This document shows positions 26,916-48,357 of a stretch of DNA of 64,000 nt, piece after piece (the first letter of the stretch is position 1; every line of letters begins with the position of its first letter). The position numbers were made by a program, and so were the translations under genes. The notes beneath the pieces were generated by a model. That model made no database searches. It had not been told where the DNA came from and was given only the letters and a program-made list of their open reading frames with translations. Origin of the DNA: a virus; IMG/VR virus record IMGVR_UViG_3300028027_000059, positions 1 through 64,000 of that record; one strand, given 5' to 3'.

Positions 26916-26916
26916 G

Positions 26917-27067: not shown

Positions 27068-27073
27068 TTATTG

Positions 27074-27443: not shown

Positions 27444-27448
27444 ATTTG

Positions 27449-27523
27449 TCGGGTAAGCAGGACTCGAACCTGCATGATGTCCACATCCCAAATGTGGCGA
27501 CTTAGCCATTAGTCCACTACCCG
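27449..27523 (-). tRNA. tRNA-Pro(TGG)
   Basis: Anticodon arm CCACA-TTTGGGA-TGTGG. Confidence 0.7.
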
Positions 27524-27529
27524 TTTTTG

Positions 27530-27600
27530 AGTCACGTGTTGGAGTCGAACCAACCTCAAGGGATTTGCAGTCCCTTACCTAACCGCTCGGCCAACCTGAC
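27530..27600 (-). tRNA. tRNA-Cys(GCA)
   Basis: Anticodon arm AGGGA-CTGCAAA-TCCCT. Confidence 0.65.
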
Positions 27601-27606
27601 TTATTG

Positions 27607-27680
27607 TACTCTCGAGTGGATTCGAACCACTACCCCTTGATCCGTAGTCAAGAATTCTGATCCATTAAACTACAAGAGCA
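27607..27680 (-). tRNA. tRNA-Arg(ACG)
   Basis: Anticodon arm CTTGA-CTACGGA-TCAAG. Confidence 0.6.
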
Positions 27681-27684
27681 TTCG

Positions 27685-27755
27685 CACGGATACCAGGACT
27701 CGAACCTAGAACAGCAGTTTTGGAGACTGTTATGATGCCATTTCACTATACCCGT
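27685..27755 (-). tRNA. tRNA-Trp(CCA)
   Basis: Acceptor ACGGGTA/TATCCGT. Anticodon loop CTCCAAA. Confidence 0.55.
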
Positions 27756-27783
27756 ATTTTCATCTATGTCAAAGATCCTTTCG

Positions 27784-27857
27784 TTCCCCCGGTGAGGCTC
27801 GAACTCACAACCCCATGGTTAAAAGCCACGTACTCTAGCCAATTGAGCTACAAGGGA
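27784..27857 (-). tRNA. tRNA-Lys(TTT)
   Basis: D-arm GCTC-AATTGGCTA-GAGT. Anticodon arm CGTGG-CTTTTAA-CCATG. Confidence 0.65.
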
Positions 27858-31155: not shown

Positions 31156-31698
31156 TTATTCTAGAATCTCATCAACTAAACCATATCTCTGTGCTGTTTT
31201 AACATCGAAATACCATTCAGCTTGCTTTTCTCTATGTGGTTTTAATACCTTATCAGTAAATTTAGTTTTAGACATAAAGTAAGTATCACATAATTTATCA
31301 ATACGAATACATTCAGCTAGTTCTTGTTTATGAAATCCTACTTTACCTTCAACTTCATATGCACCTTCATGATACATGAATGTAGCATACTTGCTTGCTA
31401 TTCTGTGGTGTCCTGCTGAAAATACTACTAGTCCCATTGACATTGCATGACCATGACATATTGTATGAATTGGAGTCTGCGAGTTATCAATTACATCAAT
31501 TAAAGCCATACCATTATATATCTCTCCTCCAGGTGAGTTAATAATGAGTTTAATTGGGTCTACTATTTGTTTTTTAGCGTCTTCAGCATTAATCTCGTAA
31601 ATATCTTGGATTATTTCATTAACTGTTAACCCATCAATGTATCCTAGTGTTATAACTCGACTTAACGGGTCTAATTTGGAACGGCGCTCTCTTGACAT
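31156..31698 (-). CDS. ClpP-family serine protease (possible prohead protease)
   Basis: INSPGGEIY and HAMSMG catalytic-Ser motifs. Downstream His and Asp residues. Confidence 0.7.
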   Translation of the reverse strand: MSRERRSKLDPLSRVITLGYIDGLTVNEIIQDIYEINAEDAKKQIVDPIKLIINSPGGEIYNGMALIDVIDNSQTPIHTICHGHAMSMGLVVFSAGHHRIASKYATFMYHEGAYEVEGKVGFHKQELAECIRIDKLCDTYFMSKTKFTDKVLKPHREKQAEWYFDVKTAQRYGLVDEILE

Positions 31699-31730: not shown

Positions 31731-32609
31731 TTAGAATATTTCAAATTCGATTTCAGTATCTCCAAATCCCCATGATTCGGTATTCTCTGTTTGTTTCTGA
31801 TAGATTATAGCTCGGTATTGGTCATTTGATTTTTTATTAATACCATCAGCTATTCCACCACCACCCCAGCCTTTAGAACCATGGTTAATGTGAAACATAG
31901 GTGGGTTGTATATTGCTTTTAGTCCAAAACCATGCATTACTGCTTTCTTCTGAACATTAGTATCAGCAAATAATGGGTATATTAGTTCTTCTTCAAATCC
32001 ACGAATACCATCCCAAACATGTTTAGGTGCTAATTGAAAATCACCACAGCAATTAATAATACTATAATCATCACCTGCCATTGTTTTTTCTTCATCCTTA
32101 CGTTCTTCAGAGTTAATATAAATGTAATCTCTTAATTCACTCCATTGGTCGTACTTTAATTCACCACCATGAAATTCTTTAATGATATCCCAAGTCATTT
32201 CTCTTCTACTAAGGGTAATAAATGTATTATCATCGCTATTTTTAATAATAGTTTCTATATCTTCACGTTTTGGGTGGATGATATCAATGTTAGTAGAAAC
32301 GATATAATCGCCTGTTGCTCTTCTAATGCCTATATTACGAGCTAGTACTTCGCAGCATTTTTGGGCCTGAGGATCGTTGTTTGTTAGTATTGAAGCCACT
32401 TCGGGCGTAATAACAATATGTTTTAAATTACCTTTAAGTTGTAAATTGTCTTTAATATCATAAAGCAAACTATGATTTTCTGAGTTCCAATCAATATAGA
32501 ATACTTCATCGTAAGTAGAGATTGCTGAATTGATAGCATAAGTTGCTCTTTCAGCTAAGTGTCCACCGTAATTGTCATTTCTAGATATTATTATTGCTGA
32601 TATTTTCAT
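31731..32609 (-). CDS. glycosyltransferase family 2
   Basis: N-terminal KISAIIISRND and a GT-A DxD region. Confidence 0.55.
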   Translation of the reverse strand: MKISAIIISRNDNYGGHLAERATYAINSAISTYDEVFYIDWNSENHSLLYDIKDNLQLKGNLKHIVITPEVASILTNNDPQAQKCCEVLARNIGIRRATGDYIVSTNIDIIHPKREDIETIIKNSDDNTFITLSRREMTWDIIKEFHGGELKYDQWSELRDYIYINSEERKDEEKTMAGDDYSIINCCGDFQLAPKHVWDGIRGFEEELIYPLFADTNVQKKAVMHGFGLKAIYNPPMFHINHGSKGWGGGGIADGINKKSNDQYRAIIYQKQTENTESWGFGDTEIEFEIF

Positions 32610-33465
32610 TTTCTATTTTAATTAAGAATTTTTTTAATTCGTCTGGAAATTGTTTATATGATAGTTCTCTTGAATTTTCTTTGTTTGCTACAGATTTTAC
32701 TTTGTCATTTGATCTGTCTGCAACCATATTTTCACTAATGTAAGCGCCTTTAAGTAAATATTGTTTAACATCAATACCTGCTCTAACAGCATAATTGCTA
32801 GCATACATAGCAAATGTATCTTCAGATCCATATCCACCAAATGATTCAGGTATGCCTATTAAGTCCCAAAATTCCTTAGAATATAAGGTATGCATACCAC
32901 AACCAAATTTAAATGTATCAAGTAATTGTAAACTTACTTCATTTATATCTTGATTATAAGTTAAATCAGCATCGTGTGTTAAATGATAGTTATATTCTTT
33001 ATTTATAAAATTATCATGAACAGCTAAATCCCAACTATTATCCCATAATTTAACTATTTGAGGTAATATAATGTATTTACCATTTAATTGATAAGACGCC
33101 TCAAGTTGGTATTTAAGTAATTGTTCTGGAAATGCTATGTCAGTATCTATAAAAATGAATTGATCATAGTTTAATTTAATAGCATCACGTTTTTGAGCTG
33201 TTGTTCCATATCCAGGCACTCTGCTAACTACCTCATTAATGTTTTTAACAGATTGTGCTTTACTAAATCTTCTAATAAAGTAAGGTTGTTTTAACTCACT
33301 GTTATCCCAATCAGTTAACGATGGAGATAAATTTAATGTTGCCATTAAGGTAACATTATCAGTATCATCTAAATATTGAAGTGCTTTTTTATATTGTTCC
33401 ACCCACCTATCGAATAAATCCATTTCATTAGGCATTACGTGAACACATACTAATGTTGATTTCAT
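32581..33465 (-). CDS. putative GT-A glycosyltransferase
   Basis: FIFIDTDIAF is a DxD motif. Confidence 0.4.
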   Translation of the reverse strand: MKSTLVCVHVMPNEMDLFDRWVEQYKKALQYLDDTDNVTLMATLNLSPSLTDWDNSELKQPYFIRRFSKAQSVKNINEVVSRVPGYGTTAQKRDAIKLNYDQFIFIDTDIAFPEQLLKYQLEASYQLNGKYIILPQIVKLWDNSWDLAVHDNFINKEYNYHLTHDADLTYNQDINEVSLQLLDTFKFGCGMHTLYSKEFWDLIGIPESFGGYGSEDTFAMYASNYAVRAGIDVKQYLLKGAYISENMVADRSNDKVKSVANKENSRELSYKQFPDELKKFLIKIENENISNNNI

Positions 33466-34286
33466 ATTACTCCGTTTTCTTTAAACAATTCAACGATTGT
33501 GTTTTTAATATTACCTACATAATCTTTATACTCAAACGCTTTTTGGTAATTATATTCAATAGCAGATAATTTTTCATTATAGAAGTCTGAGTCTATTAAG
33601 TTATTTATTACTTCAATGATTTGATCAGCATTGCTAACTTGAATAATACCTCCATCATCATAAAAATCACCTATGTTAGAGCAACCCCAATAGATTGGAA
33701 TTGTTTTATTCAATATACAATCAGTTATTTTCTCAGAAAAATAGTTCTCACGAGATGAATTTTCAATACAAACTGAATATTGGTATGGTCTAAATGTTTT
33801 GATTTTATCTTCACGCCATTGTTCAAAGTTACCTCTTTCACCTAATTTATCCCAGAATTGGATTGGTGTTTTTATTTCATTTTGTCTATCAAATAACTCA
33901 TGTCTGATAGCATGTCCAGGTAATTTTAATAATCCTCCTCTTAAGAATGATACTTTAAATTCCTTTTCAGTTTCAGTATATTCAAACGGTCTATCTTGCC
34001 ACCAACTTTCACCATATGTAACTTGTAAAGCATTAGGCACTTGATTAAGTACTTTAGTACTCCACGTTAATATGACACTAAATAAATGATGATTACGAAC
34101 AGCATAATCATGATTACCAAAATATTCATTTGGTTCGCTTCCAATTAACAATATGTTAATAGGATTTTTCTTTAATTCATCATAAGTAGGTTGATACTCA
34201 TTAAAGAAGGAAAAGTTCAGATGGGCTAGGTCCGCAAAGGCCTTTTCCCATCTTTCTTGTTCTATATAATTAGATACTATATACAT
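33462..34286 (-). CDS. GT10-like (alpha-1,3-fucosyltransferase-motif) glycosyltransferase
   Basis: YQYSVCIENSSRENYFSEKITD matches the FucT motif (F/Y)xxxFENS...YxTEK. Confidence 0.5.
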   Translation of the reverse strand: MYIVSNYIEQERWEKAFADLAHLNFSFFNEYQPTYDELKKNPINILLIGSEPNEYFGNHDYAVRNHHLFSVILTWSTKVLNQVPNALQVTYGESWWQDRPFEYTETEKEFKVSFLRGGLLKLPGHAIRHELFDRQNEIKTPIQFWDKLGERGNFEQWREDKIKTFRPYQYSVCIENSSRENYFSEKITDCILNKTIPIYWGCSNIGDFYDDGGIIQVSNADQIIEVINNLIDSDFYNEKLSAIEYNYQKAFEYKDYVGNIKNTIVELFKENGVI

Positions 34287-35224
34287 TATTTAAAACTATT
34301 AAAGTAAATGTCTAAGAATTCTTTAGTTTTTGTTGGGATATAATCATCAGTAGTATTTGGGTCTCTAGTAAAGTCTAATGTGTGTCTATATCCAATAACT
34401 TCTTTTTCTAAATTAGTGATTAAATCTTGAACATTTCTGTCTTGATAAACTGATGCTCTATTATAGATTAATTTATCATCACCAATCATCTTTTGAGTAT
34501 AATAGCCACCCCAAATATCATCCATTCTACCAACATAAGGCCACACTGCATAATGCTTTAAAGCATCTCTATGGATAAATGTGTTTTGAGAGTTGAATGG
34601 AGATATTTCAGCTGCAGCAAATGGAGCTGTAGTATCGAATTTAACAATTGGTTTAAATGTTAATCTACACATTGCATCAATGTCAGGATCACCATCCCAT
34701 AAATCAGCTTGAATTAATGGTATAATTGTTCTCTTACCCTTATATTCAATACTATTTTTTAAATGTAATAAATCGATTGGAAATCCTCTATGCCATAAGT
34801 TAGATTGATTAGTTACGGATAATGGATCAAATACTAAAAGTTCTTTATTAGTATAATAATCAACTTCTACTTCCTTACCAATATATAAATCAGTTCCCCA
34901 ATTGTCATAAGGGATATTATCATCATCAACTGTGGCTACTATGTCAGCACCTTTATTATAAGCATAAACAAACCCAATATTACGACGTTGAATTGTTTTC
35001 CATCCAATAATTTCACTTAATTCAGGATATAATTCAGCTTGTTGTTCTGGATCTAAATAGGTTACTGTTGGGTAATCTCTTTCAAGTTCTCTATATTCAT
35101 CATGTGGTGTTTTAGTATCACCTACAATAACGAATATCCAATTATCACGTTTTGCTATTTCAGCAAATAAACGAGTTGCTTTAGTTGGGTAATTAATTGT
35201 TGTTGTAACTATAAATTTATTCAT
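34286..35224 (-). CDS. putative glycosyltransferase (STELLO/DUF288-like)
   Basis: N-terminal TTINYPT and VDDDN. Confidence 0.35.
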   Translation of the reverse strand: MNKFIVTTTINYPTKATRLFAEIAKRDNWIFVIVGDTKTPHDEYRELERDYPTVTYLDPEQQAELYPELSEIIGWKTIQRRNIGFVYAYNKGADIVATVDDDNIPYDNWGTDLYIGKEVEVDYYTNKELLVFDPLSVTNQSNLWHRGFPIDLLHLKNSIEYKGKRTIIPLIQADLWDGDPDIDAMCRLTFKPIVKFDTTAPFAAAEISPFNSQNTFIHRDALKHYAVWPYVGRMDDIWGGYYTQKMIGDDKLIYNRASVYQDRNVQDLITNLEKEVIGYRHTLDFTRDPNTTDDYIPTKTKEFLDIYFNSFK

Positions 35225-35227
35225 ATA

Positions 35228-35833
35228 TTATTTTTGTAAAATGAAACAGCCTACTCCAAATGCTCTATCAGTGTATAATACATCTTCCATTTCATTTGGA
35301 TCAGTAATAACCCACTCATCATTAATTAATCTATAAGTGTATGATTCAACTATTTTAGAGCCTTTAGTTAAATCAAGAATTGCTTGCCAGTTGTAGTTTT
35401 GATGATACGGCTGCCAAACGTGTTTCCCAAAGGGTACTGTTAAGAATATATAACCACCATCATTTAAAATTGATAATGCTTTTTCATATCCTTTTCTATC
35501 ATATCCTTCTCTAAACACAACGTCTGATTCAGTACATTGAGGAAAATGTTCTAATGAAGATAAGAATATACCAATATCAAACTTCTGAGTTTCAAAATCA
35601 ATTTGAACAAAATCACCTGGGTAATGACATTCTCTGAAATTACTTACTCTATAATCGATATTGTTGTCTTTAATAAAATTATAGAAATTGCTTAGATGGG
35701 TGTGATTTGTAGGTACACCTCCAATATCAATAATTACATTTCCTTGTTTGTAGTATTTCTTAACACATTCTTCTATGAATATAGTTTCAACACTACGTTC
35801 ACTACCTAAGTAGTTTTGGATGGTTTGTTCCAT
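35228..35833 (-). CDS. class I SAM-dependent methyltransferase
   Basis: VIIDIGG motif I and GGYIFLTVP. Confidence 0.5.
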   Translation of the reverse strand: MEQTIQNYLGSERSVETIFIEECVKKYYKQGNVIIDIGGVPTNHTHLSNFYNFIKDNNIDYRVSNFRECHYPGDFVQIDFETQKFDIGIFLSSLEHFPQCTESDVVFREGYDRKGYEKALSILNDGGYIFLTVPFGKHVWQPYHQNYNWQAILDLTKGSKIVESYTYRLINDEWVITDPNEMEDVLYTDRAFGVGCFILQK

Positions 35834-36810
35834 TATGATAATTTGTTTAACCAGTAATTTAATAAATCTGTCATTGTTTGTTCAACAGGTATTTTTGGTT
35901 CCCAACCTGTTAATTGTTTTAATTCTTTACTATCACCTATTTGAACTTGAATATCAATTGGTCTGTAGAATGGAGCGTAAATTTCTTGTTTAATTTCATC
36001 ATATTCAAACTTAGATGCTTTAATTAACAAGTCAGTATAATGTTGCATTTTATGAACATCATCACCACAAACGTTAAATACCTTTTTATTGCTATCTGGG
36101 TTTAACATTAATAAATAATAAGCGTTAACACAATCTCTAACGTCAACTACTACTCTTTCTGTTTGTAAATTACCTACTTTCAATACTGGTTCTTGTAAAC
36201 CTAATTGCATTTTAGCAATTTGATAAGCATCAGAACTAATACTGAATATTTTACCTCTACGAGGACCAGTATGACTGAATGCTCTAGTTACGAATCCATC
36301 TAAGAAACCATTTGCTGTACGTTCTTGAACGTATAAATCGATAGCTGCTTTAGAAGAACCATAAGGATTACTTGGTGCTAAAGGAGTATCAACTGATAGC
36401 AATCCTACATCTTTACAAGTATCACCATATACTTCACTTGTAGAACAGAACATAAAGCGAGTATTACTACCTTCTAATGCTGTAATCAAGTTCATAGATG
36501 CACCTACGTTTTCTTCCCATGTTAAGATTGGATCTTTAAAACTGGTTGGTGGGTGTGATTGAGCTGCTAAATGGAATACACCATCAAACTTCTCGTTATT
36601 CAATAATTTTTGAACACTATGATACATCTTTAAATCCAAATAATGGAATTTAATAGCATCTAACTCATTTAGTGTTAAAATGTCTAATAAATCTGTTTCT
36701 CTACCGTTAGCTGTTCTTACAACTCCGTGTACTTCATGTCCTTCTTTTAATAATAGTTTTGCTAAATTAGGACCTGCAAAACCTGTAATGCCAGTAATTA
36801 AATACTTCAT
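35833..36810 (-). CDS. GDP-mannose 4,6-dehydratase / GDP-4-keto-6-deoxymannose reductase (GMD/RMD family SDR)
   Basis: ITGITGFAG, STSEVYG, YGSSK and FSHTGPRRG (compare GMD NHESPRRG). At 325 aa it is closer to RMD in size. Confidence 0.65.
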   Translation of the reverse strand: MKYLITGITGFAGPNLAKLLLKEGHEVHGVVRTANGRETDLLDILTLNELDAIKFHYLDLKMYHSVQKLLNNEKFDGVFHLAAQSHPPTSFKDPILTWEENVGASMNLITALEGSNTRFMFCSTSEVYGDTCKDVGLLSVDTPLAPSNPYGSSKAAIDLYVQERTANGFLDGFVTRAFSHTGPRRGKIFSISSDAYQIAKMQLGLQEPVLKVGNLQTERVVVDVRDCVNAYYLLMLNPDSNKKVFNVCGDDVHKMQHYTDLLIKASKFEYDEIKQEIYAPFYRPIDIQVQIGDSKELKQLTGWEPKIPVEQTMTDLLNYWLNKLS

Positions 36811-36813
36811 GTT

Positions 36814-37416
36814 TTATATTTTTGGAATAATAAATAAAAAGCCTTGATGTCTCAACGATTTCTCAAAAGTATGAGTATCTTTAAACATATCATAAATAAA
36901 TTGTGATTTAGTAACTAAACCCAATTCTTCTTGAAGTCCTGAATAAGCCCAGCCTCCAAATTCATAGTCACCTTCTTCGTATAACTTAAAATCATCAATT
37001 AAGAATACATCTTTGTCTGTATTTCTAAATTTCTTGATTGCTGTTAATTCTTGATGTAATGGAAATGCTTCATCCTTGTATGTACGGATTGATTCTTCAT
37101 AAGTCATCTTGTGAAAATCAGCTCCAGGGAAATGAGCATCTAGGAAAAAGAATACTGGTTCTTGATCTAATGTTGGAACATATTGTTCTAATGCTTTAGA
37201 AGAATAATCATTAATTAATGTTAATGGGTATCCTACAAAGCGGTTTTTAGCAGCAGCAACTAGTTCTTCATCTAAATCAACCGAATAGAATTTTTCAAAG
37301 TCAAAATTCAAAGCATGACTTAAACAAACACCTTTTCCGGTTCCTGTTTCGAAGTATGTTTTACAGTTATGTTTCTCAACATAAGGTGTTAAATCGAATA
37401 TATTAATCTCTCCCAT
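36814..37416 (-). CDS. putative methyltransferase (TylF/MycF-like?)
   Basis: FETGTGKG is a Gly-rich loop. LDAHFPGAD. Confidence 0.35.
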   Translation of the reverse strand: MGEINIFDLTPYVEKHNCKTYFETGTGKGVCLSHALNFDFEKFYSVDLDEELVAAAKNRFVGYPLTLINDYSSKALEQYVPTLDQEPVFFFLDAHFPGADFHKMTYEESIRTYKDEAFPLHQELTAIKKFRNTDKDVFLIDDFKLYEEGDYEFGGWAYSGLQEELGLVTKSQFIYDMFKDTHTFEKSLRHQGFLFIIPKI

Positions 37417-37419
37417 AAT

Positions 37420-38154
37420 TTAATTGTGGTAAACCCACTTGCTTTTAAATAAGTTTTTAATATGCATCCAGTTAGATGGAGTGTATCTTGAATACATGTT
37501 TACTCCATTTTCTAATGCTAGTTTTTCAAACAAATAACACCATGATGTATCTACAGTGTGAATTTGAAGAGCACACTGCATAATGTAGCTCCAATCAAAT
37601 AATGTAAAACCAGGTATATTATCTACTTCTACTACTTTAAGTGGGGTATTGAAGTTGATTTGTGTACAAACACCCTCTTTACCACTACCGAAGTATCTAT
37701 TAGTAACGATATAATTTTCTTCTGTCAATTCCAACAAATCGAATAAATCTCTTTCTCTTCCTTCATTACGATTGAAGTCAAAATAATCAGCCCAATCATC
37801 AAAATCCATATTGACCATCTTATATTTTGCTTCCATTACTGATCCTGGAATTTGCCAGTCAGCATGTTGAAGAGGGAGATATAAGCAATTATCTTCAATT
37901 TCAATTATATCTGAAATTGGTTGCTCGTAGACGTTTTTGTGTTTAAAATCTGATGATAACGGAATAAAGTCAACGTTTGGGGCAATTAGATAATCTTTAA
38001 CCCATATAAATTCATCTAATACAGGCCAAGTTACTCTGCAGTTGTAATGTTCAGCTAAGGTATGGGCGATCTTCTGTGTGAAGAATATATCGCCCAATCC
38101 TGCTGGTTGTTTTATTAGTATACTATCCATTAACTTGTTTATTAATCCATTCAA
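37420..38154 (-). CDS. putative glycosyltransferase (GT9-like?)
   Basis: QPAGLGD resembles the heptosyltransferase GLGD motif. Weak call. Confidence 0.25.
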   Translation of the reverse strand: MNGLINKLMDSILIKQPAGLGDIFFTQKIAHTLAEHYNCRVTWPVLDEFIWVKDYLIAPNVDFIPLSSDFKHKNVYEQPISDIIEIEDNCLYLPLQHADWQIPGSVMEAKYKMVNMDFDDWADYFDFNRNEGRERDLFDLLELTEENYIVTNRYFGSGKEGVCTQINFNTPLKVVEVDNIPGFTLFDWSYIMQCALQIHTVDTSWCYLFEKLALENGVNMYSRYTPSNWMHIKNLFKSKWVYHN

Positions 38155-39181
38155 ATGTTTGATTGATACCTTTATCTAAAGGATAATATACATCTGATCC
38201 GATTTTTTCTTTGAATAGTTTGTTATCTGAATTTCTACCTCTAACACCTACTGGACATTTAAAACCATATTTTGCTTCAAATTCTTCACCAGCAATGTTT
38301 TTGATAGTAATGTTTTTGCCTGAAGCAGCAATAGCTAATTCAGCTAATGTGTTAATAGTAACCATTTCTTCTGATCCAATATTAACTGGTCCTATAAATT
38401 CTTCTTGTCTCATTAAACGTAATACTGCATATACACACTCATCAATGTATAGGAATGAACGTGTTTGTTGACCATCACCCCATACTTCAATTGTTCCACC
38501 ATCTTCAGTTTCAGCTGCTTTACGACACATTGCTGCAGGTGCTTTTTCTTTACCACCTTTCCAAGTGCCTTGTGGTCCAAAGATATTGTGGAAACGAGCT
38601 ACACGAACATCTAATTTATAATTTCTATTAAATGCTAAGAATAAACGCTCACTAAACAGCTTTTCCCAGCCGTATTCTGAATCTGGATTTGCTGGATATG
38701 CACTTGATTCTTCACAATTTGGATTATTTGGATCCAATTGATTATGCTCAGGATACATACAAGCAGATGAGCTGTAGAATACACGTTTAGCTTTTTGCTT
38801 AACAGCCTCATGAGCAACGTTTAAGTTAACTAAAGCTGAATTATGCATTACATTTGCATCATTATCACCTGTAAAAATATAACCAGCACCACCCATATCA
38901 GCTGCTAATTGATAAACTTCATCAAATTGCAAACTTTCAGAAAATGGATAAGGTAAATACTTACAAGGTAATGGATGACCACTATATCCTTCTAGACGCA
39001 TTGCTGCTTCTACATTTTTAGGATCACGTAAATCATAAAGTAAAAAATCGTCTGCTGCTGTTTCTTCAAACTCAGGACGCTTTAAATCTACTCCACGAAC
39101 CCAAAATCCTTCTGATTTTAATCGTTTAACGAGGTGTGAGCCAATAAACCCACCTGCTCCTAATACTAGTGCTGTTTTCAT
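38123..39181 (-). CDS. GDP-mannose 3,5-epimerase (GME)
   Basis: GAGGFIGSH, LAADMGGAGYI, YSSSACMYPE, RFHNIFGPQGTWKGGKEKAPAAMCRKA and GVRGRNSDN align with plant GME nearly motif-for-motif. Confidence 0.8.
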   Translation of the reverse strand: MKTALVLGAGGFIGSHLVKRLKSEGFWVRGVDLKRPEFEETAADDFLLYDLRDPKNVEAAMRLEGYSGHPLPCKYLPYPFSESLQFDEVYQLAADMGGAGYIFTGDNDANVMHNSALVNLNVAHEAVKQKAKRVFYSSSACMYPEHNQLDPNNPNCEESSAYPANPDSEYGWEKLFSERLFLAFNRNYKLDVRVARFHNIFGPQGTWKGGKEKAPAAMCRKAAETEDGGTIEVWGDGQQTRSFLYIDECVYAVLRLMRQEEFIGPVNIGSEEMVTINTLAELAIAASGKNITIKNIAGEEFEAKYGFKCPVGVRGRNSDNKLFKEKIGSDVYYPLDKGINQTFEWINKQVNG

Positions 39182-39801
39182 ATTGTACTATAATAATTGT
39201 TTTGTTTTTCTTGTCTTTCAATTGTTTTAGGGTGTATTAACTCTAAATCATATCCTGTAGGAAGAAATGATACATTTGCATTGAATCCATCATCTCCTAA
39301 TATTCGTTCATGTACTTTACCTACCCACTTAAATTGTGGAATATTCTTACATAATCTAACTTGGTAATCAGGATAATTAACCCATCCCTTTTCATCTACT
39401 TTCCATCCCCATTTTTGAATATGTTCTTGAGTTAATCCTTCAACTGTGTTAATTCGAGGTACTGCGTATATGTCTATTACAGGATTTGCCTCTAATATGT
39501 CTGATAGATTTAATAGGAGGACATCTGATAAGTATTCATCAGCATCAATTTGGAATATATAATCTCTGGTACATAAACCTTTAAGATTATTTTTAAATGT
39601 AGCGAAATCATTATTTAACGGATGGAAATAATTCATCAACTTGTACTTATTGACTACTGCTTTAACCTCATCGGTAGCAGTAATATCCATCTGTACTACG
39701 ATTTCATCTTCAGGACGAATATGTTCTGTAAGTTGACTTAATAATCTATCTAATTCAACATGCTCATTATGAGCTGTGATTGCATAACTGATTGAGGGCA
39801 T
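39178..39801 (-). CDS. glycosyltransferase family 2
   Basis: ISYAITAHNE and FQIDADE (DxD). Confidence 0.6.
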   Translation of the reverse strand: MPSISYAITAHNEHVELDRLLSQLTEHIRPEDEIVVQMDITATDEVKAVVNKYKLMNYFHPLNNDFATFKNNLKGLCTRDYIFQIDADEYLSDVLLLNLSDILEANPVIDIYAVPRINTVEGLTQEHIQKWGWKVDEKGWVNYPDYQVRLCKNIPQFKWVGKVHERILGDDGFNANVSFLPTGYDLELIHPKTIERQEKQNNYYSTI

Positions 39802-39804
39802 AAC

Positions 39805-40197
39805 TTATTTTTGTTTAAAATAACCTATATATTCTAGAGCATCCATAAATCCATTTTGCTCATATTCTTTTTTAGTAGACATATCTGCCTTACCTTCTTT
39901 AGCTTGTACTGCTGACCATTTCCAGTTTTCAATTGAAGACCCTTCAGCAAATACCATTGATTTATCTTCTAACATTACACTGTTTGGGTACCAATACTTA
40001 CCATCAACATCCTTAAATCTAAGGGCTTTATACAATTCAGGTAAAGTACCTTCCATTTCAATATAATTCTTATCGGTAATTGTAGTATTAGATGTAAACC
40101 CACATCCCATACAAATCCATATTGTAACGACACCATTGGTCATTTCGCTACAAGCGTTACCACTACATTTAGGACATATTACTAATTTTTCTTCCAT
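39805..40197 (-). CDS. zinc-ribbon protein
   Basis: CPKCSGNAC...CMGCG. Confidence 0.4.
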   Translation of the reverse strand: MEEKLVICPKCSGNACSEMTNGVVTIWICMGCGFTSNTTITDKNYIEMEGTLPELYKALRFKDVDGKYWYPNSVMLEDKSMVFAEGSSIENWKWSAVQAKEGKADMSTKKEYEQNGFMDALEYIGYFKQK

Positions 40198-40198
40198 T

Positions 40199-41479
40199 TT
40201 ACTTTATTTTAGGTAGTTCGATTTTCTTTAATTGTGGTAGTTTAAATTCTACTGGTTTAGGTACTTTACTATCTAATATTGATAATAATTTCTCACCCAT
40301 TTTTTCTAAACTAAATTCAGTACGTGAACGATACGATTGTTTCTTTGCATTATCAATATATTTGTTATAATTCTTATAAACATCTACTAATACTTTAGAT
40401 GCACGTTCATAGTTAACTGTAAACCAAGCGCTTTCAGGAATTAACATATCTTGTACTACTGCTGAACCATGAATTTGTTTTAATTCACCAGGTAGCATTA
40501 TTGATAATTCTTTATCAAGAAAATCTAAATGACCACTATAAGCACTAGCAATTACTGGTTTGCCTGTAATTGATGCTTCAAGTAATGGGCGTCCATATCC
40601 TTCACCTTTAGTAAATGAAACAAATGCTTTTACTTTAGGATGGTTATTTAATTCATTAATTTCTTCATCACTTAATTCACCATGTACTAAATAAACACTT
40701 GGTAAATCACCACCTACTTCTTCTTGAATTTTTCTAATTTTATCTAATATCTCTTCTCTATCCATTACAGATGGGGTAGCAGATTGTGTTTTTAGTACTA
40801 ATGCAGGGCGTGGTTTTTTACCTTTAAACGTTTCAAGGAATGTTTTAATTAACATGCCTACATCTTTTCTATCTTGTCCAGTTTCACCTTGTAACCAATG
40901 ACCTACAAATAAATAACAGAACTCTTCATTAATACCATCTAATACTTCTTTTACATCAGTACTAAGTGTATCTAATCTTTTATAGATATCTAAATTAGCA
41001 CCTTCAAATAATACTTCTACTGGTGATTTTAATTCAATAATACCTTCTACTTGTTGTGTTTGTTGATTACGTCTTTCAAACTTAGATTCTTGGAATACTT
41101 TTTTAGCATGTTCTGAAGATACTAGGTTTAAATTCATTCTATTACAACCTTCAATCCATTGTGGAGCACATACTGTAGTTTCAATACCAGCAGTAATACC
41201 AATATTAAATTTGCCTACAGTTTGAAACTCATTTGGTACAGTAATCTGAATCCAAACATCTGGTTGTTTGGGCATTTGTTGAATAAAACAATCTTTAATT
41301 AACTTATGATCAGGGTTCTCATTTTGTAAGAATCCCCAAGGTGTACTACCCCATCTTTGAGGTAATATTTTTACATCGTAATTACCTGATTTAATTAAGG
41401 GTAATACTATATCTCTACTTCTTGCTCCATAACCTGAATATGTGTCAGCTGGGCAGCTTATAACTACTAGTGGTTTCAT
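40199..41479 (-). CDS. glycosyltransferase family 4 (GT-B)
   Basis: FVSFTKGEGYGRPLLEASITGKPVIAS is an EX7E motif. Confidence 0.6.
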   Translation of the reverse strand: MKPLVVISCPADTYSGYGARSRDIVLPLIKSGNYDVKILPQRWGSTPWGFLQNENPDHKLIKDCFIQQMPKQPDVWIQITVPNEFQTVGKFNIGITAGIETTVCAPQWIEGCNRMNLNLVSSEHAKKVFQESKFERRNQQTQQVEGIIELKSPVEVLFEGANLDIYKRLDTLSTDVKEVLDGINEEFCYLFVGHWLQGETGQDRKDVGMLIKTFLETFKGKKPRPALVLKTQSATPSVMDREEILDKIRKIQEEVGGDLPSVYLVHGELSDEEINELNNHPKVKAFVSFTKGEGYGRPLLEASITGKPVIASAYSGHLDFLDKELSIMLPGELKQIHGSAVVQDMLIPESAWFTVNYERASKVLVDVYKNYNKYIDNAKKQSYRSRTEFSLEKMGEKLLSILDSKVPKPVEFKLPQLKKIELPKIK

Positions 41480-41480
41480 A

Positions 41481-42935
41481 TTATTGTGCGATAACGTGTT
41501 TTACAAAATGTTTTGGATTCTCTAAGGGTTCTACCTTAATTAGCTCAAATGCATATCTAGGTTCCCATTTAGCGAATGTTTCTTCAATACCATCCATTAT
41601 ATTTTTAGACATTGCTGTTGATGTCATCATTGCTTCTTCTGAAGTAACCCATTTATAGGCAGCTTGGCATTGTTCATTATATACTTCTGGAGTTTCTGTT
41701 TTAGTTTTATACAATGCTGTTATTTGATCAGCAATATGAAATGGCTCAGCTCTGTCATCAAAAATATAAGGTGTTGGAATAGAACCTACAATTGATAAGT
41801 TTGAAGGGAATACGGGGTAGGCCCATTTACCGTGTTTTTTATATTTACCTCTATGGTTAGATCCGAATTCTTCAGTAAACTTAATCCACTCACCATTTTC
41901 ATCTTCAAAACGCATTTGGTCTTGCATACCACCTGTTACAGTAGCTATAATAGGTTTACCACACATCATTGCTTCTGTTAATGATAATCCCCAACCTTCA
42001 TTACTACTAATTAAAGCGGTTGCATCACAAGCATTATAAAGCAAATTCATAATGTTTGCTGGGTATCTACCTTCATCGAAGATAATGTTACCACCTTCTC
42101 TACCAAACAACATTTGTTGTACTGCTGGTAAGTCAGTTCCATTATCATCTAATCTTTGAGTATGCATTACTAAAGCACATTTATCTCTTTTATCTTCTGG
42201 GAGTTGATCACGGAATATCTTCCATGCTAACATTAAATCAGGAACGGATTTACGACGGATGTTACGCGCGTTATATAATAGAGTAAAATCATAAGTTTTT
42301 TCTCCAAATAAGCGCTTTTTAAATTCTTGTACAGCCAAGTACTCTGGGTGTTCTTGGGAGACAGGGAAGAATAGTTTTTCATTGATTCCATGGGGAACAT
42401 ATTTAATTACTTTTTCTGAAGCAACATCACCTAATACTGCTCGGTTAATGTTTTCTGTTTGTTTACTAATAGCTAATAAACAATCACATGATTCATAGTA
42501 TGGTTTATTATACATTGGATAAGGTAAATCATCCCAAATGTTTAAGTAAATTAATGGAATTTGTTTTCTAATCTCATGTTCCATCTGAAATAACCAAATC
42601 CAATATCTAGGATCTGTAAAGATCATAATTGCATCTGGTTTTTCAATTTCCATCATTTGTCTAATTAGCTCAGGAGAACCATAACCATCAATAGGATAAA
42701 GGTAAACACTCGCATCCGTAATACCAGCATGTTGGTTGGTATCATGGTTTAAATCGAATCTTTTACCTTTGTCTGGGTGTTGAATAGCACCTCCAATGTT
42801 TACCCAATTGTATTTATGGGCAGTACCTATAACGATTTCTCTAGCCATAGTGGAAATACCACTAGTCATTCGAATATCATCACATAATAATAGGATTTTT
42901 TTACGTTTCTCCTGCGGGATATAACCTTCTTTCAT
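41481..42935 (-). CDS. glycosyltransferase family 4 (GT-B)
   Basis: ISSNEGWGLSLTEAMMCGKPIIAT. Confidence 0.6.
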   Translation of the reverse strand: MKEGYIPQEKRKKILLLCDDIRMTSGISTMAREIVIGTAHKYNWVNIGGAIQHPDKGKRFDLNHDTNQHAGITDASVYLYPIDGYGSPELIRQMMEIEKPDAIMIFTDPRYWIWLFQMEHEIRKQIPLIYLNIWDDLPYPMYNKPYYESCDCLLAISKQTENINRAVLGDVASEKVIKYVPHGINEKLFFPVSQEHPEYLAVQEFKKRLFGEKTYDFTLLYNARNIRRKSVPDLMLAWKIFRDQLPEDKRDKCALVMHTQRLDDNGTDLPAVQQMLFGREGGNIIFDEGRYPANIMNLLYNACDATALISSNEGWGLSLTEAMMCGKPIIATVTGGMQDQMRFEDENGEWIKFTEEFGSNHRGKYKKHGKWAYPVFPSNLSIVGSIPTPYIFDDRAEPFHIADQITALYKTKTETPEVYNEQCQAAYKWVTSEEAMMTSTAMSKNIMDGIEETFAKWEPRYAFELIKVEPLENPKHFVKHVIAQ

Positions 42936-42942: not shown

Positions 42943-43143
42943 TTACTCGGTTTCTTTTGGTAATGTTGTGTCTAATTGATTGTGAATTTGTTTTCTAAAT
43001 TCATCGCTTGTCAGGTATAAGAACATTGTACGCTCAGTTAATTTTTGAACGCTAAATTTGTACTTAACACAGGCAATCTTGAATTGTTCAAACAAATCCT
43101 CAGGGATCTTCACACTTGTTAGTTGCATGTTTGATTTTGCCAT
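42943..43143 (-). CDS. hypothetical protein
   Basis: 66 aa with the promoter-like motif upstream. Confidence 0.35.
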   Translation of the reverse strand: MAKSNMQLTSVKIPEDLFEQFKIACVKYKFSVQKLTERTMFLYLTSDEFRKQIHNQLDTTLPKETE

Positions 43144-46734: not shown

Positions 46735-48357
46735 TTACATTCCAAATCCTGCCATTCCACCCATATCGTCTGCTTTCTTTTCATCTGGCTTACTATGGAT
46801 AACACATTCAGTCATAAGTAATGTAACTGCGGCTGCCGCTGCATTTTCAATTGCTGAGCGTACTACCTTAGTTGGATCAATAATACCTGCTTCAAATGCA
46901 TCAATTGTATTGTTTTCTGATAAATTAGGTACAATTGTATTTCCATCTTGAGCATATATTTGATTCCACCACTCATTAGCATCTTCACCAGCATTAGTTA
47001 AGATTTGTTTGAATGGAGTAGCACATGCTTTAAATACAATCTCAGCACCTTTACTCTTATCATCTTTACCATTAAGTACAAGTACTTTTCTAGCATGTAA
47101 TAATGCCACACCAGCACCTGGTAAAATACCTTCATCTAAAGCGGCTTTAGTTGCTTGTAAAGCATCGTCTAAACGATCTTTTTTCTCTTTCATTTCGATT
47201 TCAGTACCACCACCTACATTGATAATAGCAACCCCACCAACTAACTTACCTAAACGCTCTTGTAAACGCTCAACGTTATAAGGTGTTGTTTCTTTATCTA
47301 ATTGTGTTTTTAAAGACATGATACGCTCTTCAATCTTATCAGCATCACCTTTACCATCAACAATTGTAGTTGTTTCTTTACCCACAGTAACTACTCTAGC
47401 TTTACCTAACCAATCCATGTTTAATTTAGCTAATGACATACCTCTCTCAGTTGAAATAACTGTAGCGCCTGTCAAAATAGCCATATCTTCTAACATTTGG
47501 TTTCTTAAATCACCAAATCCAGGAGCTTTAACAGCAGCAACTTTTAATGCACCTCTACCCTTGTTCATAACAAGTGTTGCTAATGCTTCACCTTCAATAT
47601 CTTCAGCAATAACAAGTAACGATTTTTGTTCAGCAGATACTTTCTCTAGTAATGGTAATAAATCCTTAATTGTACTAATTTTCTTATCGTAAATTAAAAT
47701 TAATGGATCATTTAATACAGCTGACATTGAAGTATTATCAGTCACAAAGTAATGTGATTTATAACCTCTATCAAACTGTAAACCCTCTACTACCTCAAGT
47801 GATGTCTCACCTGAACGAGATTCTTCCACTGTAACTACCCCATCTCTACCTACTTTATCTAACGCTGTAGCTACTAACTCACCTATTTCAGTGTCGCCAT
47901 TAGCTGATAATGTTGCTACTTGCTTGATTTGTTCTTCACCTGTAATGTCTTTAGACATTGCTTTTAATTCAGCAACTACTTCTTTAACAGCGGCTTCAAT
48001 ACCACGCTTAATTTGAGTTGCATTAGTTGAAGCATGTGATGTAGCATTCAATGCTTGAGAAGCAATTGAATATGCTAACACAGTAGATGTTGTTGTACCA
48101 TCACCTGCTGCATCAACTGTTTTTTGTGCTGCCTGCTTAATAACTGTAGCGGCCATGTTTTCAATTGGATCTTCCAAAGTAATGGTTTTAGCTACTGTAA
48201 CACCATCTTTAGTTGATGAAACCTCACCATGTTCTTTTTCAATCAAAACATTACGTCCGAAAGGACCCATTGTTGTCGCAACTGCTTTATTTACTTTTTC
48301 GATGCCCGCTTGTAGCTTTTGTTTTGCTTCGCGATCGAAACTAATTATTTTACTCAT
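46735..48357 (-). CDS. groL: chaperonin GroEL (Cpn60)
   Basis: 540 aa with GroEL-wide similarity. ATP-binding DGTTT and a GGM-type C-terminal tail (MGGMAGFGM). Confidence 0.9.

What the first reader, a model, noticed from the sequence alone, without database searches (positions are those of the whole stretch)
31731..42935. Large nucleotide-sugar and glycosylation island with a plant-type GDP-mannose 3,5-epimerase
Eleven kilobases encode:
- a GME (38123-39181) with near-complete motif identity to plant GDP-mannose 3,5-epimerase, which makes GDP-L-galactose and GDP-L-gulose and is rare outside plants and algae;
- a GMD/RMD-family enzyme (35833-36810);
- two SAM methyltransferases;
- about eight glycosyltransferases: two GT2, two GT4, one with the GT10 alpha-1,3-fucosyltransferase FENS...YxTEK-like motif, one STELLO-like, one GT9-like, and one further GT-A candidate.

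This resembles chlorovirus-style virus-encoded glycosylation more than typical phage biology. It predicts that the phage builds its own L-sugar-containing, possibly methylated, glycan on virion proteins or on the host surface.
Basis: partly seen in the sequence, partly recalled or inferred. Interest (0 to 1): 0.78.

Follow-up and report, generated by a model that had tools for sequence, protein, structure and literature searches.

The report
Phage operon for L-galactose glycans
A large aquatic phage carries a tightly packed 13-gene operon that should turn the host's GDP-mannose into unusual L-sugars and build them into a methylated glycan. Such islands are already known in big aquatic phages, but this one hides an unrecognised enzyme pair that probably makes the very rare sugar L-galactofuranose.

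Summary
The gene inventory is real. Window 31731-42935 holds 13 co-directional, almost gap-free ORFs:
- a true GDP-mannose 3,5-epimerase (all 8 diagnostic residues present);
- a GMD/RMD-family SDR;
- two methyltransferase-like proteins;
- seven glycosyltransferases: two GT4-type, two GT2-type, one GT10, one GT9-like GT-B fold, one GT-A fold.

The "STELLO-like" ORF (34286-35224) is a GT75 homologue of MtdL, the GDP-L-galactose pyranose-to-furanose mutase.

The framing is wrong. The epimerase is bacterial-type: 72% identical to Bacteroidota enzymes against about 50% to the plant enzyme. Relatives occur in at least 420 bacterial genomes, at least 600 viral contigs and 143 phage records, and one was already annotated in cyanophage S-SCSM1. 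Glycosyltransferase islands are also a described feature of large aquatic T4-like myophages.

New here:
- The GT75 gene is tightly linked to the epimerase in viruses (71 of 80 loci, 40 adjacent) but in none of 80 bacterial loci.
- A GT backbone is shared with Flavobacterium phage immuto and Microcystis phage Mel-JY01.
- Two cassettes in this island are absent from a near relative.

No island protein has a membrane segment. The acceptor (virion protein or host glycan) is unresolved.

The parts
42943..43143 (-). 66-aa ORF directly upstream of the operon. Possible ribbon-helix-helix regulator; untested.
   Evidence: ORF read and called as a gene in L001. A small ORF sits at the same position in Flavobacterium phage immuto. 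The fold assignment is by eye only.
41481..42935 (-). M: GT4-type (GT-B) glycosyltransferase, 484 aa. Backbone gene.
   Evidence: Pfam Glycos_transf_1 49.5 bits against a cut-off of 26.4. PHROG 2170, E 1e-21. 56% identical to the Flavobacterium phage immuto GT and 45% to Microcystis phage Mel-JY01.
40199..41479 (-). L: GT4-like glycosyltransferase, 426 aa. Backbone gene.
   Evidence: Glycos_transf_1 25.9 bits, just under the 26.4 cut-off. PHROG 2170, E 4.6e-18. Syntenic with the immuto RfaG-type GT. Present in 18 of 81 GME loci.
39805..40197 (-). K: 130-aa protein with an N-terminal CxxC...CxxC zinc ribbon. Backbone gene of unknown role.
   Evidence: Weak Zn-ribbon Pfam hits, below cut-off. 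Conserved between L and J in 16 viral loci. An ORF of similar size sits at the same position in immuto.
39178..39801 (-). J: GT2 (GT-A) glycosyltransferase, 207 aa. Backbone gene.
   Evidence: Pfam Glycos_transf_2 31.6 bits against a cut-off of 23.3. Present in 19 of 81 loci, immediately upstream of GME.
38123..39181 (-). I: GDP-mannose 3,5-epimerase (GM35E/GME), 352 aa.
   Evidence: 274 bits to AtGME 2c59, against 70 bits to the next family. 8 of 8 diagnostic residues conserved.
37420..38130 (-). H: compact (236 aa) GT-B-fold glycosyltransferase, GT9-like. Part of the variable cassette.
36814..37416 (-). G: probable class I SAM-dependent methyltransferase, 200 aa, possibly metal-dependent. 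Part of the variable cassette.
   Evidence: ETGTGxG motif I. The family profile hits the SAM-binding N-terminus of KsgA/Erm/PIMT/YrrM at E 5e-4. The family has 1368 representatives, some fused to GT9, GT34 or TPR domains. Support is weak.
35833..36810 (-). F: GMD/RMD-family extended SDR, 325 aa. Either a GDP-hexose/heptose 4,6-dehydratase or a 4-reductase. Part of the variable cassette.
   Evidence: GDP_Man_Dehyd 204 bits. 7us5 189 bits, RMD 2pk3 149 bits, canonical GMD 112 bits or less. Far below the TIGR01472 gmd equivalog cut-off, 126 against 415. T124/E126/Y150/K154 are present.
35228..35833 (-). E: class I SAM-dependent methyltransferase, 201 aa. Part of the variable cassette.
   Evidence: 13 of 35 homologues hit Methyltransf_23, 9 hit DUF268 and 3 hit Methyltransf_11. 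Several homologues are named SAM-dependent methyltransferase by JGI. Weak PDB profile hits to the SAM-MTases 1ve3 and 1wzn.
34286..35224 (-). D: GT75-family protein, 312 aa, homologous to MtdL. Probable GDP-L-galactopyranose to GDP-L-galactofuranose mutase.
   Evidence: phmmer E 6e-19 and family profile E 2e-27 to MtdL structures 7yua and 7xpr. 11 of 14 functional residues are invariant; D87 is Ile, H287 is Gln and H292 is Gln. A GME lies within 10 kb in 71 of 80 viral loci and is adjacent in 40.
33462..34286 (-). C: GT10-like (alpha-1,3-fucosyltransferase family) glycosyltransferase, 274 aa. Part of the second variable cassette.
   Evidence: Pfam Glyco_transf_10 28 bits against a cut-off of 23.9. 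CIENS...NYFSEK motif. Absent from the near relative L088.
32581..33465 (-). B: GT-A-fold glycosyltransferase of an uncharacterised family, 294 aa. Part of the second variable cassette.
31731..32609 (-). A: GT2-like (GT-A) glycosyltransferase, 292 aa, usually directly downstream of D. Candidate furanosyltransferase.
   Evidence: GT2 20 bits, below cut-off, but 8 of 13 homologues hit GT2, best E 1e-6. Present in 52 of 80 D loci, next to D.

Best explanation
The stretch is one operon-like, 13-gene cytoplasmic glycan assembly line. It sits in a divergent T4-like myophage with a family-B polymerase, a clamp loader, GroES/EL and 23 tRNAs.

The architecture is a lineage-conserved backbone with two swappable cassettes:
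- Backbone: GT4 M, GT4-like L, Zn-ribbon K, GT2 J, GME I, GT75 D, GT2-like A.
- Cassette 1: H-G-F-E.
- Cassette 2: C-B.

Proposed chemistry:
1. Host GDP-D-mannose is epimerised by I to GDP-L-galactose (plus GDP-L-gulose).
2. D, a relative of the MtdL mutase, contracts the ring to GDP-L-galactofuranose.
3. The adjacent GT2-like A transfers the furanose.
4. M, L and J lay down the rest of the oligosaccharide.
5. F makes a GDP-6-deoxy-hexose or -heptose, which the GT9-like H transfers.
6. E and G O-methylate sugars.
7. GT10-like C adds L-galactose or L-fucose, and B adds one further sugar.

No membrane protein, flippase, polymerase or priming transferase is present. The M-L-J backbone also recurs in phages of different host phyla. 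I therefore slightly favour a phage-encoded protein, such as a virion component, as the acceptor.

Shown: family and fold assignments, catalytic residues, synteny and linkage. Inferred: substrates, order of steps and acceptor.
For: Family and fold assignments:
- GME identity and 8 of 8 diagnostic residues.
- D is homologous to MtdL, E 6e-19 for the single sequence and 2e-27 for the profile. The DxD motif, nucleophile Arg159, base Asp260, Asp195, Ser228/Gln229, Arg257 and Arg289 are invariant.
- MtdL makes GDP-L-Galf from GDP-L-Galp downstream of a GME in A201A biosynthesis (PMC9937993; PMC6678494).
- Folds of H and B. Family of E. GT10 hit for C.
- Fucosyltransferases are known to accept GDP-L-Gal (PMC8787198).

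Linkage and synteny:
- 71 of 80 viral D loci carry a GME within 10 kb, and in 40 it is adjacent.
- At least one of the 9 loci without a GME in range (L087, same contig as L014) carries it beyond the 10-kb flank.
- A lies next to D in 52 of 80 loci.
- H and F are adjacent in several loci.
- The order N-M-L-K-J-I-(variable)-D-A-ClpP is conserved in IMG/VR loci.
- The M-L-J backbone sits at the same genome position in Flavobacterium phage immuto and Microcystis phage Mel-JY01, each with a different sugar cassette.
- Near relative L088 (GME 96% identical) lacks both cassettes.

Other:
- No hydrophobic segment in any of the 13 proteins; maximum KD19 is 1.18.
- Gene junctions run from -29 to +3 bases.
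- GC content matches the rest of the genome.
Against: - D differs from MtdL at three residues that matter there. D87, essential in MtdL, is Ile. The Mn ligand H287 is Gln. H292 is Gln. All three changes are consistent across the viral family, so mutase activity or substrate could differ.
- F cannot be assigned as dehydratase or reductase, and no partner 4-reductase or dehydratase is in the island.
- G's methyltransferase call is weak.
- Nothing identifies the acceptor. The literature on related cyanophage and pelagimyophage islands favours host O-chain modification, though without experiments.
- No structural genes adjoin the island.
- Promoter and late-promoter scans were uninformative.
Confidence: 0.45

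Rival explanations
1. The enzymes and chemistry are the same, but the acceptor is a host envelope glycan (O-antigen, capsule or other undecaprenyl-linked intermediate). The soluble phage GTs decorate host lipid-linked precursors at the cytoplasmic face, and host flippases export them. The changed cell surface blocks superinfection or stops progeny being lost on debris.
For: - This is the standard reading of homologous 'LPS / cell-wall modification' clusters in cyanomyophages and pelagimyophages (PMC9602691; PMC7029224; PMC12801897).
- O-antigen GTs are typically peripheral proteins without TM helices (general knowledge).
- Cassette turnover resembles O-antigen locus diversity.
- The closest GME relatives are in Bacteroidota genomes.
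Against: - The island has no priming phosphoglycosyltransferase, flippase, polymerase, ligase or Gtr-type membrane component.
- The backbone is conserved in phages of Flavobacterium and Microcystis, whose surface glycans differ.
- The role has never been shown experimentally for such islands.
Confidence: 0.33
2. ORF D is not a mutase. It is a GT75-type arginine or self-glycosylating enzyme, or an ordinary GT-A transferase. GDP-L-galactose is then used only in pyranose form, for example by the GT10-like ORF C.
For: - The residues matching MtdL D87, H287 and H292 are replaced.
- D87N and D87S abolish MtdL mutase activity.
- GT75 proteins also autoglycosylate.
- A GT10-like enzyme that could take GDP-L-Galp is present.
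Against: - The nucleophile Arg, the catalytic Asp260, Asp195 and the S-Q, R257 and DxD residues are all invariant.
- The D87 position also varies in active plant mutases, where it is Ser.
- Tight D-GME adjacency holds even in loci without a GT10-like gene.
Confidence: 0.3
3. F (as GMD) and I together make GDP-L-fucose rather than GDP-L-galactose. I would act as a 3,5-epimerase on GDP-4-keto-6-deoxymannose. The GT10-like enzyme would fucosylate, and D would make L-fucofuranose as Hyg20 does.
For: - A GMD-family SDR and a GT10-like enzyme are both present.
- MtdL and Hyg20 also act on GDP-L-fucose.
- Cyanophage GME homologues sit next to GT11 fucosyltransferase-like genes.
Against: - I carries the GM35E-specific Lys217 and Arg306, not the His and Lys of GDP-fucose synthase.
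- Its NCBIfam score to Fcl is 92 against a cut-off of 500.
- GME cycles its own NAD and has no net reductase activity (PMC8787198).
- F is absent from most loci that carry I and D.
Confidence: 0.08
4. The transferases glycosylate phage DNA, giving hypermodified bases as in T-even phages, to evade restriction.
For: - The island lies in the replication and nuclease region.
- The phage is T4-like.
- A QueC gene elsewhere in the window hints at DNA base modification.
Against: - Seven GTs, two methyltransferases and L-sugar and 6-deoxy-sugar pathways far exceed any known DNA glycosylation, which adds one or two sugars (general knowledge).
- None of the GTs resembles the T4 alpha- or beta-GT families.
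- The window was not screened for a hydroxymethylase (untested).
Confidence: 0.03

Closest known systems
Cell-wall / LPS-type gene clusters of T4-like cyanomyophages and pelagimyophages (S-SCSM1, S-SCSM2R, S-SSM7, S-T4, P-SSM2; PMC9602691, PMC12801897, PMC7029224)
   Same: - Large aquatic myophage with a co-directional block of nucleotide-sugar SDRs, methyltransferases and many GTs.
- GME homologues at 56-61% identity.
- S-SCSM1 ORF123 is already named GDP-mannose 3,5-epimerase.
- S-T4 carries both the GME and the GT75-like gene.
   Different: - The phage lineage differs: polymerase is only 28-36% identical.
- The island sits in the replication region, not the tail-fibre 'host recognition cluster'.
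- The GT set differs: GT10 and GT9-like here, GT11 and GT25 there.
- The GT75 gene has been annotated only as a hypothetical or 'membrane' protein, so the GME-mutase pair has not been recognised.
A201A (Marinactinospora) and hygromycin A sugar pathways: GME-type epimerase plus the GT75 mutases MtdL and Hyg20 (PMC9937993, PMC6678494)
   Same: - The same two-enzyme logic: GDP-mannose to GDP-L-galactopyranose to GDP-L-galactofuranose.
- D is 33% identical to MtdL over 230 residues, with 11 of 14 functional residues conserved.
   Different: - That is actinomycete secondary metabolism, whereas this is a phage glycan operon.
- D lacks the equivalents of Asp87, His287 and His292.
- No nucleoside-antibiotic genes are present.
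Chlorovirus PBCV-1 autonomous capsid glycosylation (PMC5408694, PMC9614988)
   Same: - Virus-encoded GDP-sugar enzymes (GMD family), soluble cytoplasmic GTs and sugar O-methylation.
- The compact GT9-like ORF H has a structural match in PBCV-1 protein Q89398 (TM 0.76).
   Different: - That is a eukaryotic giant virus that makes GDP-L-fucose and D-rhamnose, with no GME or GT75.
- Capsid glycosylation is proven there and unproven here.
GT backbone of Flavobacterium phage vB_FspM_immuto and Microcystis phage Mel-JY01
   Same: - The same order: PD-(D/E)XK nuclease, small ORF, GT4, GT4-like, small protein, GT2, followed by a sugar cassette.
- GroES/GroEL lies upstream in immuto, and polB plus clamp loader in Mel-JY01.
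- M is 56% and 45% identical to the two phages' GTs.
   Different: - The downstream cassettes encode other sugars: WecE aminotransferases in immuto, a methyltransferase and other GTs in Mel-JY01.
- Neither has a GME or GT75 gene in the region shown.
Mycobacteriophage virion glycosylation (Freeman et al. 2023, cited in PMC12801897)
   Same: Phage-encoded soluble GTs, with methyltransferases, that modify capsid and tail proteins in the cytoplasm. This is a proven precedent for the favoured acceptor.
   Different: That system has only 2-4 genes, no nucleotide-sugar synthesis, unrelated phages and Gram-positive-type hosts.

Membership tests
GDP-mannose 3,5-epimerase (GM35E/GME, extended SDR, CEP1) | Best and discriminating sequence similarity to characterised GM35E rather than to GalE, GMER or UXS | tested here: met
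   274 bits to AtGME and 265 bits to 8sg0, against 70 bits or less for UXS, GalE and GMER.
GDP-mannose 3,5-epimerase (GM35E/GME, extended SDR, CEP1) | Catalytic triad S143/Y174/K178, acid/base pair C145/K217 (Lys, not the His of GMER), Cys-acidifying R306 (Arg, not the Lys of GMER), R243 and N203 | tested here: met
   All eight are conserved: S139, C141, Y170, K174, N199, K213, R241 and R316. Criteria from PMC8787198.
GDP-mannose 3,5-epimerase (GM35E/GME, extended SDR, CEP1) | [quoted passage not shown] | not testable with these tools
   Requires an enzyme assay.
GT75 NDP-pyranose mutase (MtdL / Hyg20 / plant UAM-RGP) | Significant sequence homology to a characterised GT75 member across the GT-A catalytic domain | tested here: met
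   phmmer E 6e-19 over residues 68-298. Family profile E 2e-27 over positions 30-288 to MtdL.
GT75 NDP-pyranose mutase (MtdL / Hyg20 / plant UAM-RGP) | DxD motif, nucleophilic/autoglycosylated Arg (R159), general base Asp260, Asp195, Ser228-Gln229, Arg257, Arg289 | tested here: met
   All are invariant in 19 viral family members.
GT75 NDP-pyranose mutase (MtdL / Hyg20 / plant UAM-RGP) | Mn2+-ligand His287, loop-A His292 and sugar-binding Asp87 (Ser in plant UAMs) | tested here: not met
   The residues are Gln261, Gln266 and Ile78, consistently across the family. D87N and D87S inactivate MtdL.
GT75 NDP-pyranose mutase (MtdL / Hyg20 / plant UAM-RGP) | Genomic coupling to the enzyme that supplies its substrate (GME) | tested here: met
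   71 of 80 viral loci have a GME within 10 kb, and in 40 it is adjacent.
GDP-mannose 4,6-dehydratase (GMD) / GDP-4-keto-6-deoxymannose reductase (RMD) | Membership of the GMD/RMD extended-SDR clade with the T-x-E...Y-x3-K active site | tested here: met
   PF16363 204 bits. 7us5 189 bits, 2pk3 149 bits. T124/E126/Y150/K154 read.
GDP-mannose 4,6-dehydratase (GMD) / GDP-4-keto-6-deoxymannose reductase (RMD) | Orthology to canonical GMD (NCBIfam equivalog TIGR01472) | tested here: not met
   125.8 bits against a cut-off of 415. The choice between dehydratase and reductase is left open.
GT10 alpha-1,3/4-fucosyltransferase | Pfam PF00852 above the gathering score, and the FxxxFENS...YxTEK nucleotide-sugar motif | tested here: met
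   28 bits against 23.9. Motif is CIENSSRENYFSEK, with Glu and Lys kept and Thr replaced by Ser. Homologues are only weakly flagged in public tables.
GT9 heptosyltransferase | GT-B fold closest to GT9 structures | tested here: met
GT9 heptosyltransferase | Sequence-level membership (Pfam PF01075) | tested here: not met
   No Pfam hit in 10 members. No PDB sequence hit. The protein is about 100 residues shorter than GT9 enzymes, so it is 'GT9-like fold' only.
Class I SAM-dependent methyltransferase | Profile match to methyltransferase families plus glycine-rich motif I | tested here: met
   ORF E: 13 of 35 homologues hit Methyltransf_23, and motif VIIDIGG is present.
Class I SAM-dependent methyltransferase | The same test, applied to ORF G | tested here: inconclusive
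   Only an N-terminal 55-residue profile match at E 5e-4 to KsgA/Erm. The Pfam MTase hits among members may come from fused domains.
Phage-encoded glycan ('LPS-like') islands of large aquatic myophages | A contiguous block of nucleotide-sugar enzymes and several GTs in a T4-like myophage, with variable content between relatives | tested here: met
   Context. Cassette variation. Comparators.

The most novel reading that the evidence does not exclude
A widespread module of GME, a GT75-like mutase and a GT2-like transferase gives large aquatic phages their own route to GDP-L-galactofuranose (or a related L-furanose). In these data the module is virus-specific: at least 282 IMG/VR stretches carry the GT75-like gene, and none of the 80 closest bacterial GME loci does. 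L-galactofuranose is otherwise known essentially from one antibiotic. The phages would install it on their own virion proteins, with swappable cassettes diversifying the glycan.
Probability: 0.35. Interest if true: 0.68.

Novelty: new variant of a known kind. Interest (0 to 1): 0.45.

Why it matters
Phage-encoded glycan islands are common in abundant aquatic myophages, but none has been characterised biochemically, so their targets are guesses.

This locus gives a concrete, testable pathway: GDP-mannose to GDP-L-Gal to GDP-L-Galf, then transfer. It has a compact enzyme set and a conserved GT backbone that is also present in two cultured phages (immuto, Mel-JY01) and in cyanophage S-T4, where experiments are possible.

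If confirmed, it would:
- add a virus-borne source of a very rare L-furanose;
- supply new GM35E and GT75 biocatalysts for L-sugar synthesis;
- help decide whether these islands glycosylate virions or remodel host surfaces.

If not, the island is simply one more member of a known class.

Tried and rejected
- Megablast of the island against 50,697 phage records found no match, so there is no close sequenced relative.
- Single-sequence PDB searches of ORFs E and G gave nothing useful.
- The family profile of B gave no PDB sequence hit; it too was resolved by fold.
- Pfam and PHROGs at relaxed thresholds found nothing for B, D, E, G or H as single sequences.
- The sigma-70 promoter and terminator scan found fewer sites than in shuffled sequence, so it is uninformative.
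- The T4 late-promoter motif TATAAATA occurred 17 times against 17.2 expected, with none upstream of the operon. Expression timing cannot be inferred.
- The afdb50 fold library was unavailable.
- The A201A paper PMC5441726 is not held, so that pathway is cited through PMC9937993 and PMC6678494.
- 'STELLO-like' was considered for D and replaced by GT75/MtdL.
- Horizontal-transfer signal was checked and rejected: the island's GC (0.30-0.34) matches the rest of the genome.

Full report
**1. What is at the coordinates**

Window 31731-42935 contains 13 ORFs, all on the - strand. Junctions between neighbours run from -29 to +3 bases, so this is an operon-like array. A 238-base gap upstream holds a 66-aa ORF. 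GC content (0.30-0.34) matches the rest of the window.

I label the ORFs M to A in the direction of transcription:
- M 41481-42935
- L 40199-41479
- K 39805-40197
- J 39178-39801
- I 38123-39181
- H 37420-38130
- G 36814-37416
- F 35833-36810
- E 35228-35833
- D 34286-35224
- C 33462-34286
- B 32581-33465
- A 31731-32609

**2. Genome context**

The window is phage.
- It encodes a T4 gp43-type family-B DNA polymerase, a gp44-type clamp loader, GroEL and an RnlA-type RNA ligase.
- ClpP and a PD-(D/E)XK nuclease flank the island.
- It carries a block of 23 tRNAs plus a tmRNA.
- Nothing in GenBank phages matches at the DNA level.
- The polymerase is only 36% identical to its best match, Microcystis phage Mel-JY01, and about 28-30% to cyanomyophages.
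- Identical proteins occur on metagenome contigs of up to 71 kb.

**3. The epimerase (I)**

- It scores 274 bits (E 1e-80) to Arabidopsis GME structures, against 70 bits or less for UXS, GalE and GDP-fucose synthase.
- The GM35E review PMC8787198 lists the residues that separate GM35E from GMER and GalE. All eight are conserved: S143, C145, Y174, K178, N203, K217, R243 and R306.
- Identity to the plant enzyme is 50.6% over 249 aligned positions.

The call "GME with catalytic residues intact" is therefore confirmed. The claims "plant-type" and "rare outside plants and algae" are not.
- Relatives at 62-72% identity were found in at least 420 species-representative bacterial genomes. The top matches are mostly Bacteroidota: Phaeodactylibacter, Flavobacteriales, Lewinella, Maribacter, Flavobacterium.
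- At least 600 IMG/VR viral contigs match at 64-79%, and one relative reaches 96%.
- 143 GenBank phage records match, 84 of them Synechococcus phages.
- A bacterial GM35E has been characterised (PMC6678494).
- Cyanophage S-SCSM1 ORF123 is already annotated as GDP-mannose 3,5-epimerase, inside a cluster with GMD, Fcl and fucosyltransferases (PMC9602691).

**4. The second SDR (F)**

- It belongs to the GMD/RMD clade (PF16363, 204 bits).
- It is far below the gmd equivalog cut-off, 126 against 415 bits.
- Its best solved relatives are C. jejuni GDP-D-glycero-D-manno-heptose 4,6-dehydratase (189 bits) and the reductase RMD (149 bits). Canonical GMDs score 112 bits or less.
- T124/E126/Y150/K154 are present.

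I cannot say whether it dehydrates or reduces, or whether it acts on a hexose or a heptose.

**5. The "STELLO-like" ORF (D)**

This is the most informative correction.
- D alone hits the MtdL structures 7yua and 7xpr at E 6e-19. A profile of 19 viral homologues hits them at E 2e-27.
- These entries are MtdL, the GT75 Mn2+-dependent GDP-L-galactopyranose to GDP-L-galactofuranose mutase of A201A biosynthesis (PMC9937993).
- That pathway also uses a GM35E activity (PMC6678494).
- Of 14 residues assigned a function in MtdL, 11 are invariant in the viral family: DxD-N, the nucleophilic Arg159, Asp195, Ser228-Gln229, Arg257, the base Asp260 and Arg289.
- Three are consistently replaced: Asp87 by Ile, the Mn ligand His287 by Gln, and His292 by Gln. 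Asp87 is essential in MtdL but is Ser in active plant mutases.

D is therefore a divergent GT75 member. Mutase activity is probable, not certain.

**6. Linkage of D and the epimerase**

- Among 80 viral loci retrieved through D, 71 carry a GME within 10 kb. In 64 it lies within 3 kb and in 40 it is directly adjacent.
- At least one of the nine exceptions (L087, on the same contig as L014) has a longer insert and carries its GME beyond the flank.
- Among the 80 closest bacterial GME loci, none has a D homologue within 6 kb.
- Cultured cyanophages S-T4 and Sf-CH5/8 carry D homologues at 56-57% identity, annotated as "hypothetical" or "putative membrane protein".
- I found no paper that links GT75 to phage L-galactose metabolism.

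**7. The other ORFs**

- M is GT4-type (49.5 bits).
- L is GT4-like: just below the Pfam cut-off, but PHROG 2170 at E 5e-18.
- J is GT2 (31.6 bits).
- C passes the GT10 gathering score (28 against 23.9) and keeps the ENS...Y-x-S-E-K motif.
- A is GT2-like: 8 of 13 homologues hit GT2.
- E is a class I SAM methyltransferase by its homologues.
- G has only weak methyltransferase support.
- K is a small zinc-ribbon protein.

**8. Architecture across relatives**

- IMG/VR relatives share the order nuclease-M-L-K-J-I-(variable)-D-A-ClpP.
- L088, whose GME is 96% identical, has I followed by D and A. It lacks H-G-F-E and C-B. Those two blocks are therefore swappable cassettes.
- Amino-acid identity varies strongly from gene to gene in that relative: I 96%, J 46%, K 54%. 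This indicates mosaic exchange.
- H and F travel together in other loci.
- The nuclease-small ORF-M-L-K-J backbone recurs in cultured Flavobacterium phage immuto, followed there by an aminotransferase-based sugar cassette.
- In Microcystis phage Mel-JY01 the nuclease-M-L-J part of that backbone sits at the same position after polB and the clamp loader.

**9. Mechanism**

Shown: enzyme families, catalytic residues and gene linkage.

Inferred:
1. Host GDP-mannose is converted by I to GDP-L-Gal (and GDP-L-Gul).
2. D makes GDP-L-Galf.
3. The neighbouring GT2-like A transfers it. A lies next to D in 52 of 80 loci.
4. M, L and J build the remainder of the glycan.
5. Cassette 1 adds a 6-deoxy-hexose or -heptose (F, H) with O-methylation (E, G).
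6. Cassette 2 adds L-Gal or L-Fuc through the GT10-like C, plus one more sugar through B. Fucosyltransferases are known to accept GDP-L-Gal.

No island protein has a hydrophobic segment; the maximum KD19 is 1.18. There is no priming transferase, flippase, polymerase or Gtr-type component. This, together with a backbone shared by phages of a Flavobacterium and a Microcystis host, slightly favours a phage-encoded protein acceptor. Proven precedents are chloroviruses and mycobacteriophages. Host O-chain or capsule remodelling is the usual, untested reading for cyanophage and pelagimyophage islands and remains a strong rival. DNA glycosylation is unlikely.

**10. Verdict**

A phage-built glycan that contains L-sugar and is probably methylated is plausible. 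The claims of rarity, plant type and chlorovirus-like exceptionality are not supported.
- The island is a variant of a known kind, the glycan islands of large aquatic myophages.
- The new element is the virus-linked GME-GT75 pair, which predicts L-galactofuranose, and the backbone-plus-cassette architecture.
- Interest is moderate.

Noticed in passing
window 23444-27857 (- strand): A dense array of 23 tRNA genes plus a tmRNA (tag ANEYALAA). It explains the GC rise to 0.47 at 26-28 kb.
   Followed up: partly
window 59403-60203 (- strand): A QueC homologue (PF06508, 132 bits), suggesting a 7-deazaguanine pathway for DNA or tRNA modification. The neighbouring ORFs 60248-63466 were not examined.
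   Followed up: no
window 46735-48357 and upstream; 31156-31698: The phage encodes a GroEL. Per the gene table of L001, Cpn10 and HSP20 lie just upstream. A ClpP protease lies immediately downstream of the island. Together this is an unusually full proteostasis set for a phage.
   Followed up: partly
window 42943-43143 (- strand): A 66-aa ORF directly upstream of the operon whose sequence (…VKIPEDLFEQFKIAC…) looks like a ribbon-helix-helix DNA-binding protein. A small ORF occupies the same position in Flavobacterium phage immuto. It may regulate the operon; this is untested.
   Followed up: no
window 32581-33465 (ORF B): B belongs to a highly conserved family of 799 protein clusters with no Pfam domain and no PDB sequence match. 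It models as a GT-A glycosyltransferase. This is an abundant, uncharacterised GT family.
   Followed up: partly
window 37420-38130 (ORF H): The compact (about 235 aa) GT9-like GT-B fold has structural counterparts in Synechococcus phage S-T4, PBCV-1 (Q89398, TM 0.76), Bodo saltans virus and other giant viruses. This may be a minimal GT-B family shared by phages and giant viruses.
   Followed up: partly
L088 (IMGVR_UViG_3300032233_001678) compared with the window: In this near relative the GME is 96% identical, but the neighbouring J (46%) and K (54%) are far more diverged, and both cassettes are absent. This points to gene-by-gene mosaic recombination inside the operon.
   Followed up: partly
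L191 (JABHBC010000215.1, 2.4-kb contig binned as a Flavobacteriaceae MAG): This contig carries K-J-I in phage order at 35-70% identity. It is probably a phage fragment binned into a bacterial MAG, which may hint at a Flavobacteriaceae host.
   Followed up: no
window 20729-22867 (- strand): A 712-aa ORF with a C-terminal cohesin-like domain (23 bits, just under the Pfam cut-off) and no other match.
   Followed up: no
L244 (Synechococcus phage S-T4, 77002-84424): The cultured cyanophage S-T4 has the GME, the GT75-like gene (annotated 'putative membrane protein'), heptose-pathway genes (GmhA, heptose kinase/adenylyltransferase), a methyltransferase and two GT11-type genes in one block. It is a tractable system for testing the pathway.
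   Followed up: partly
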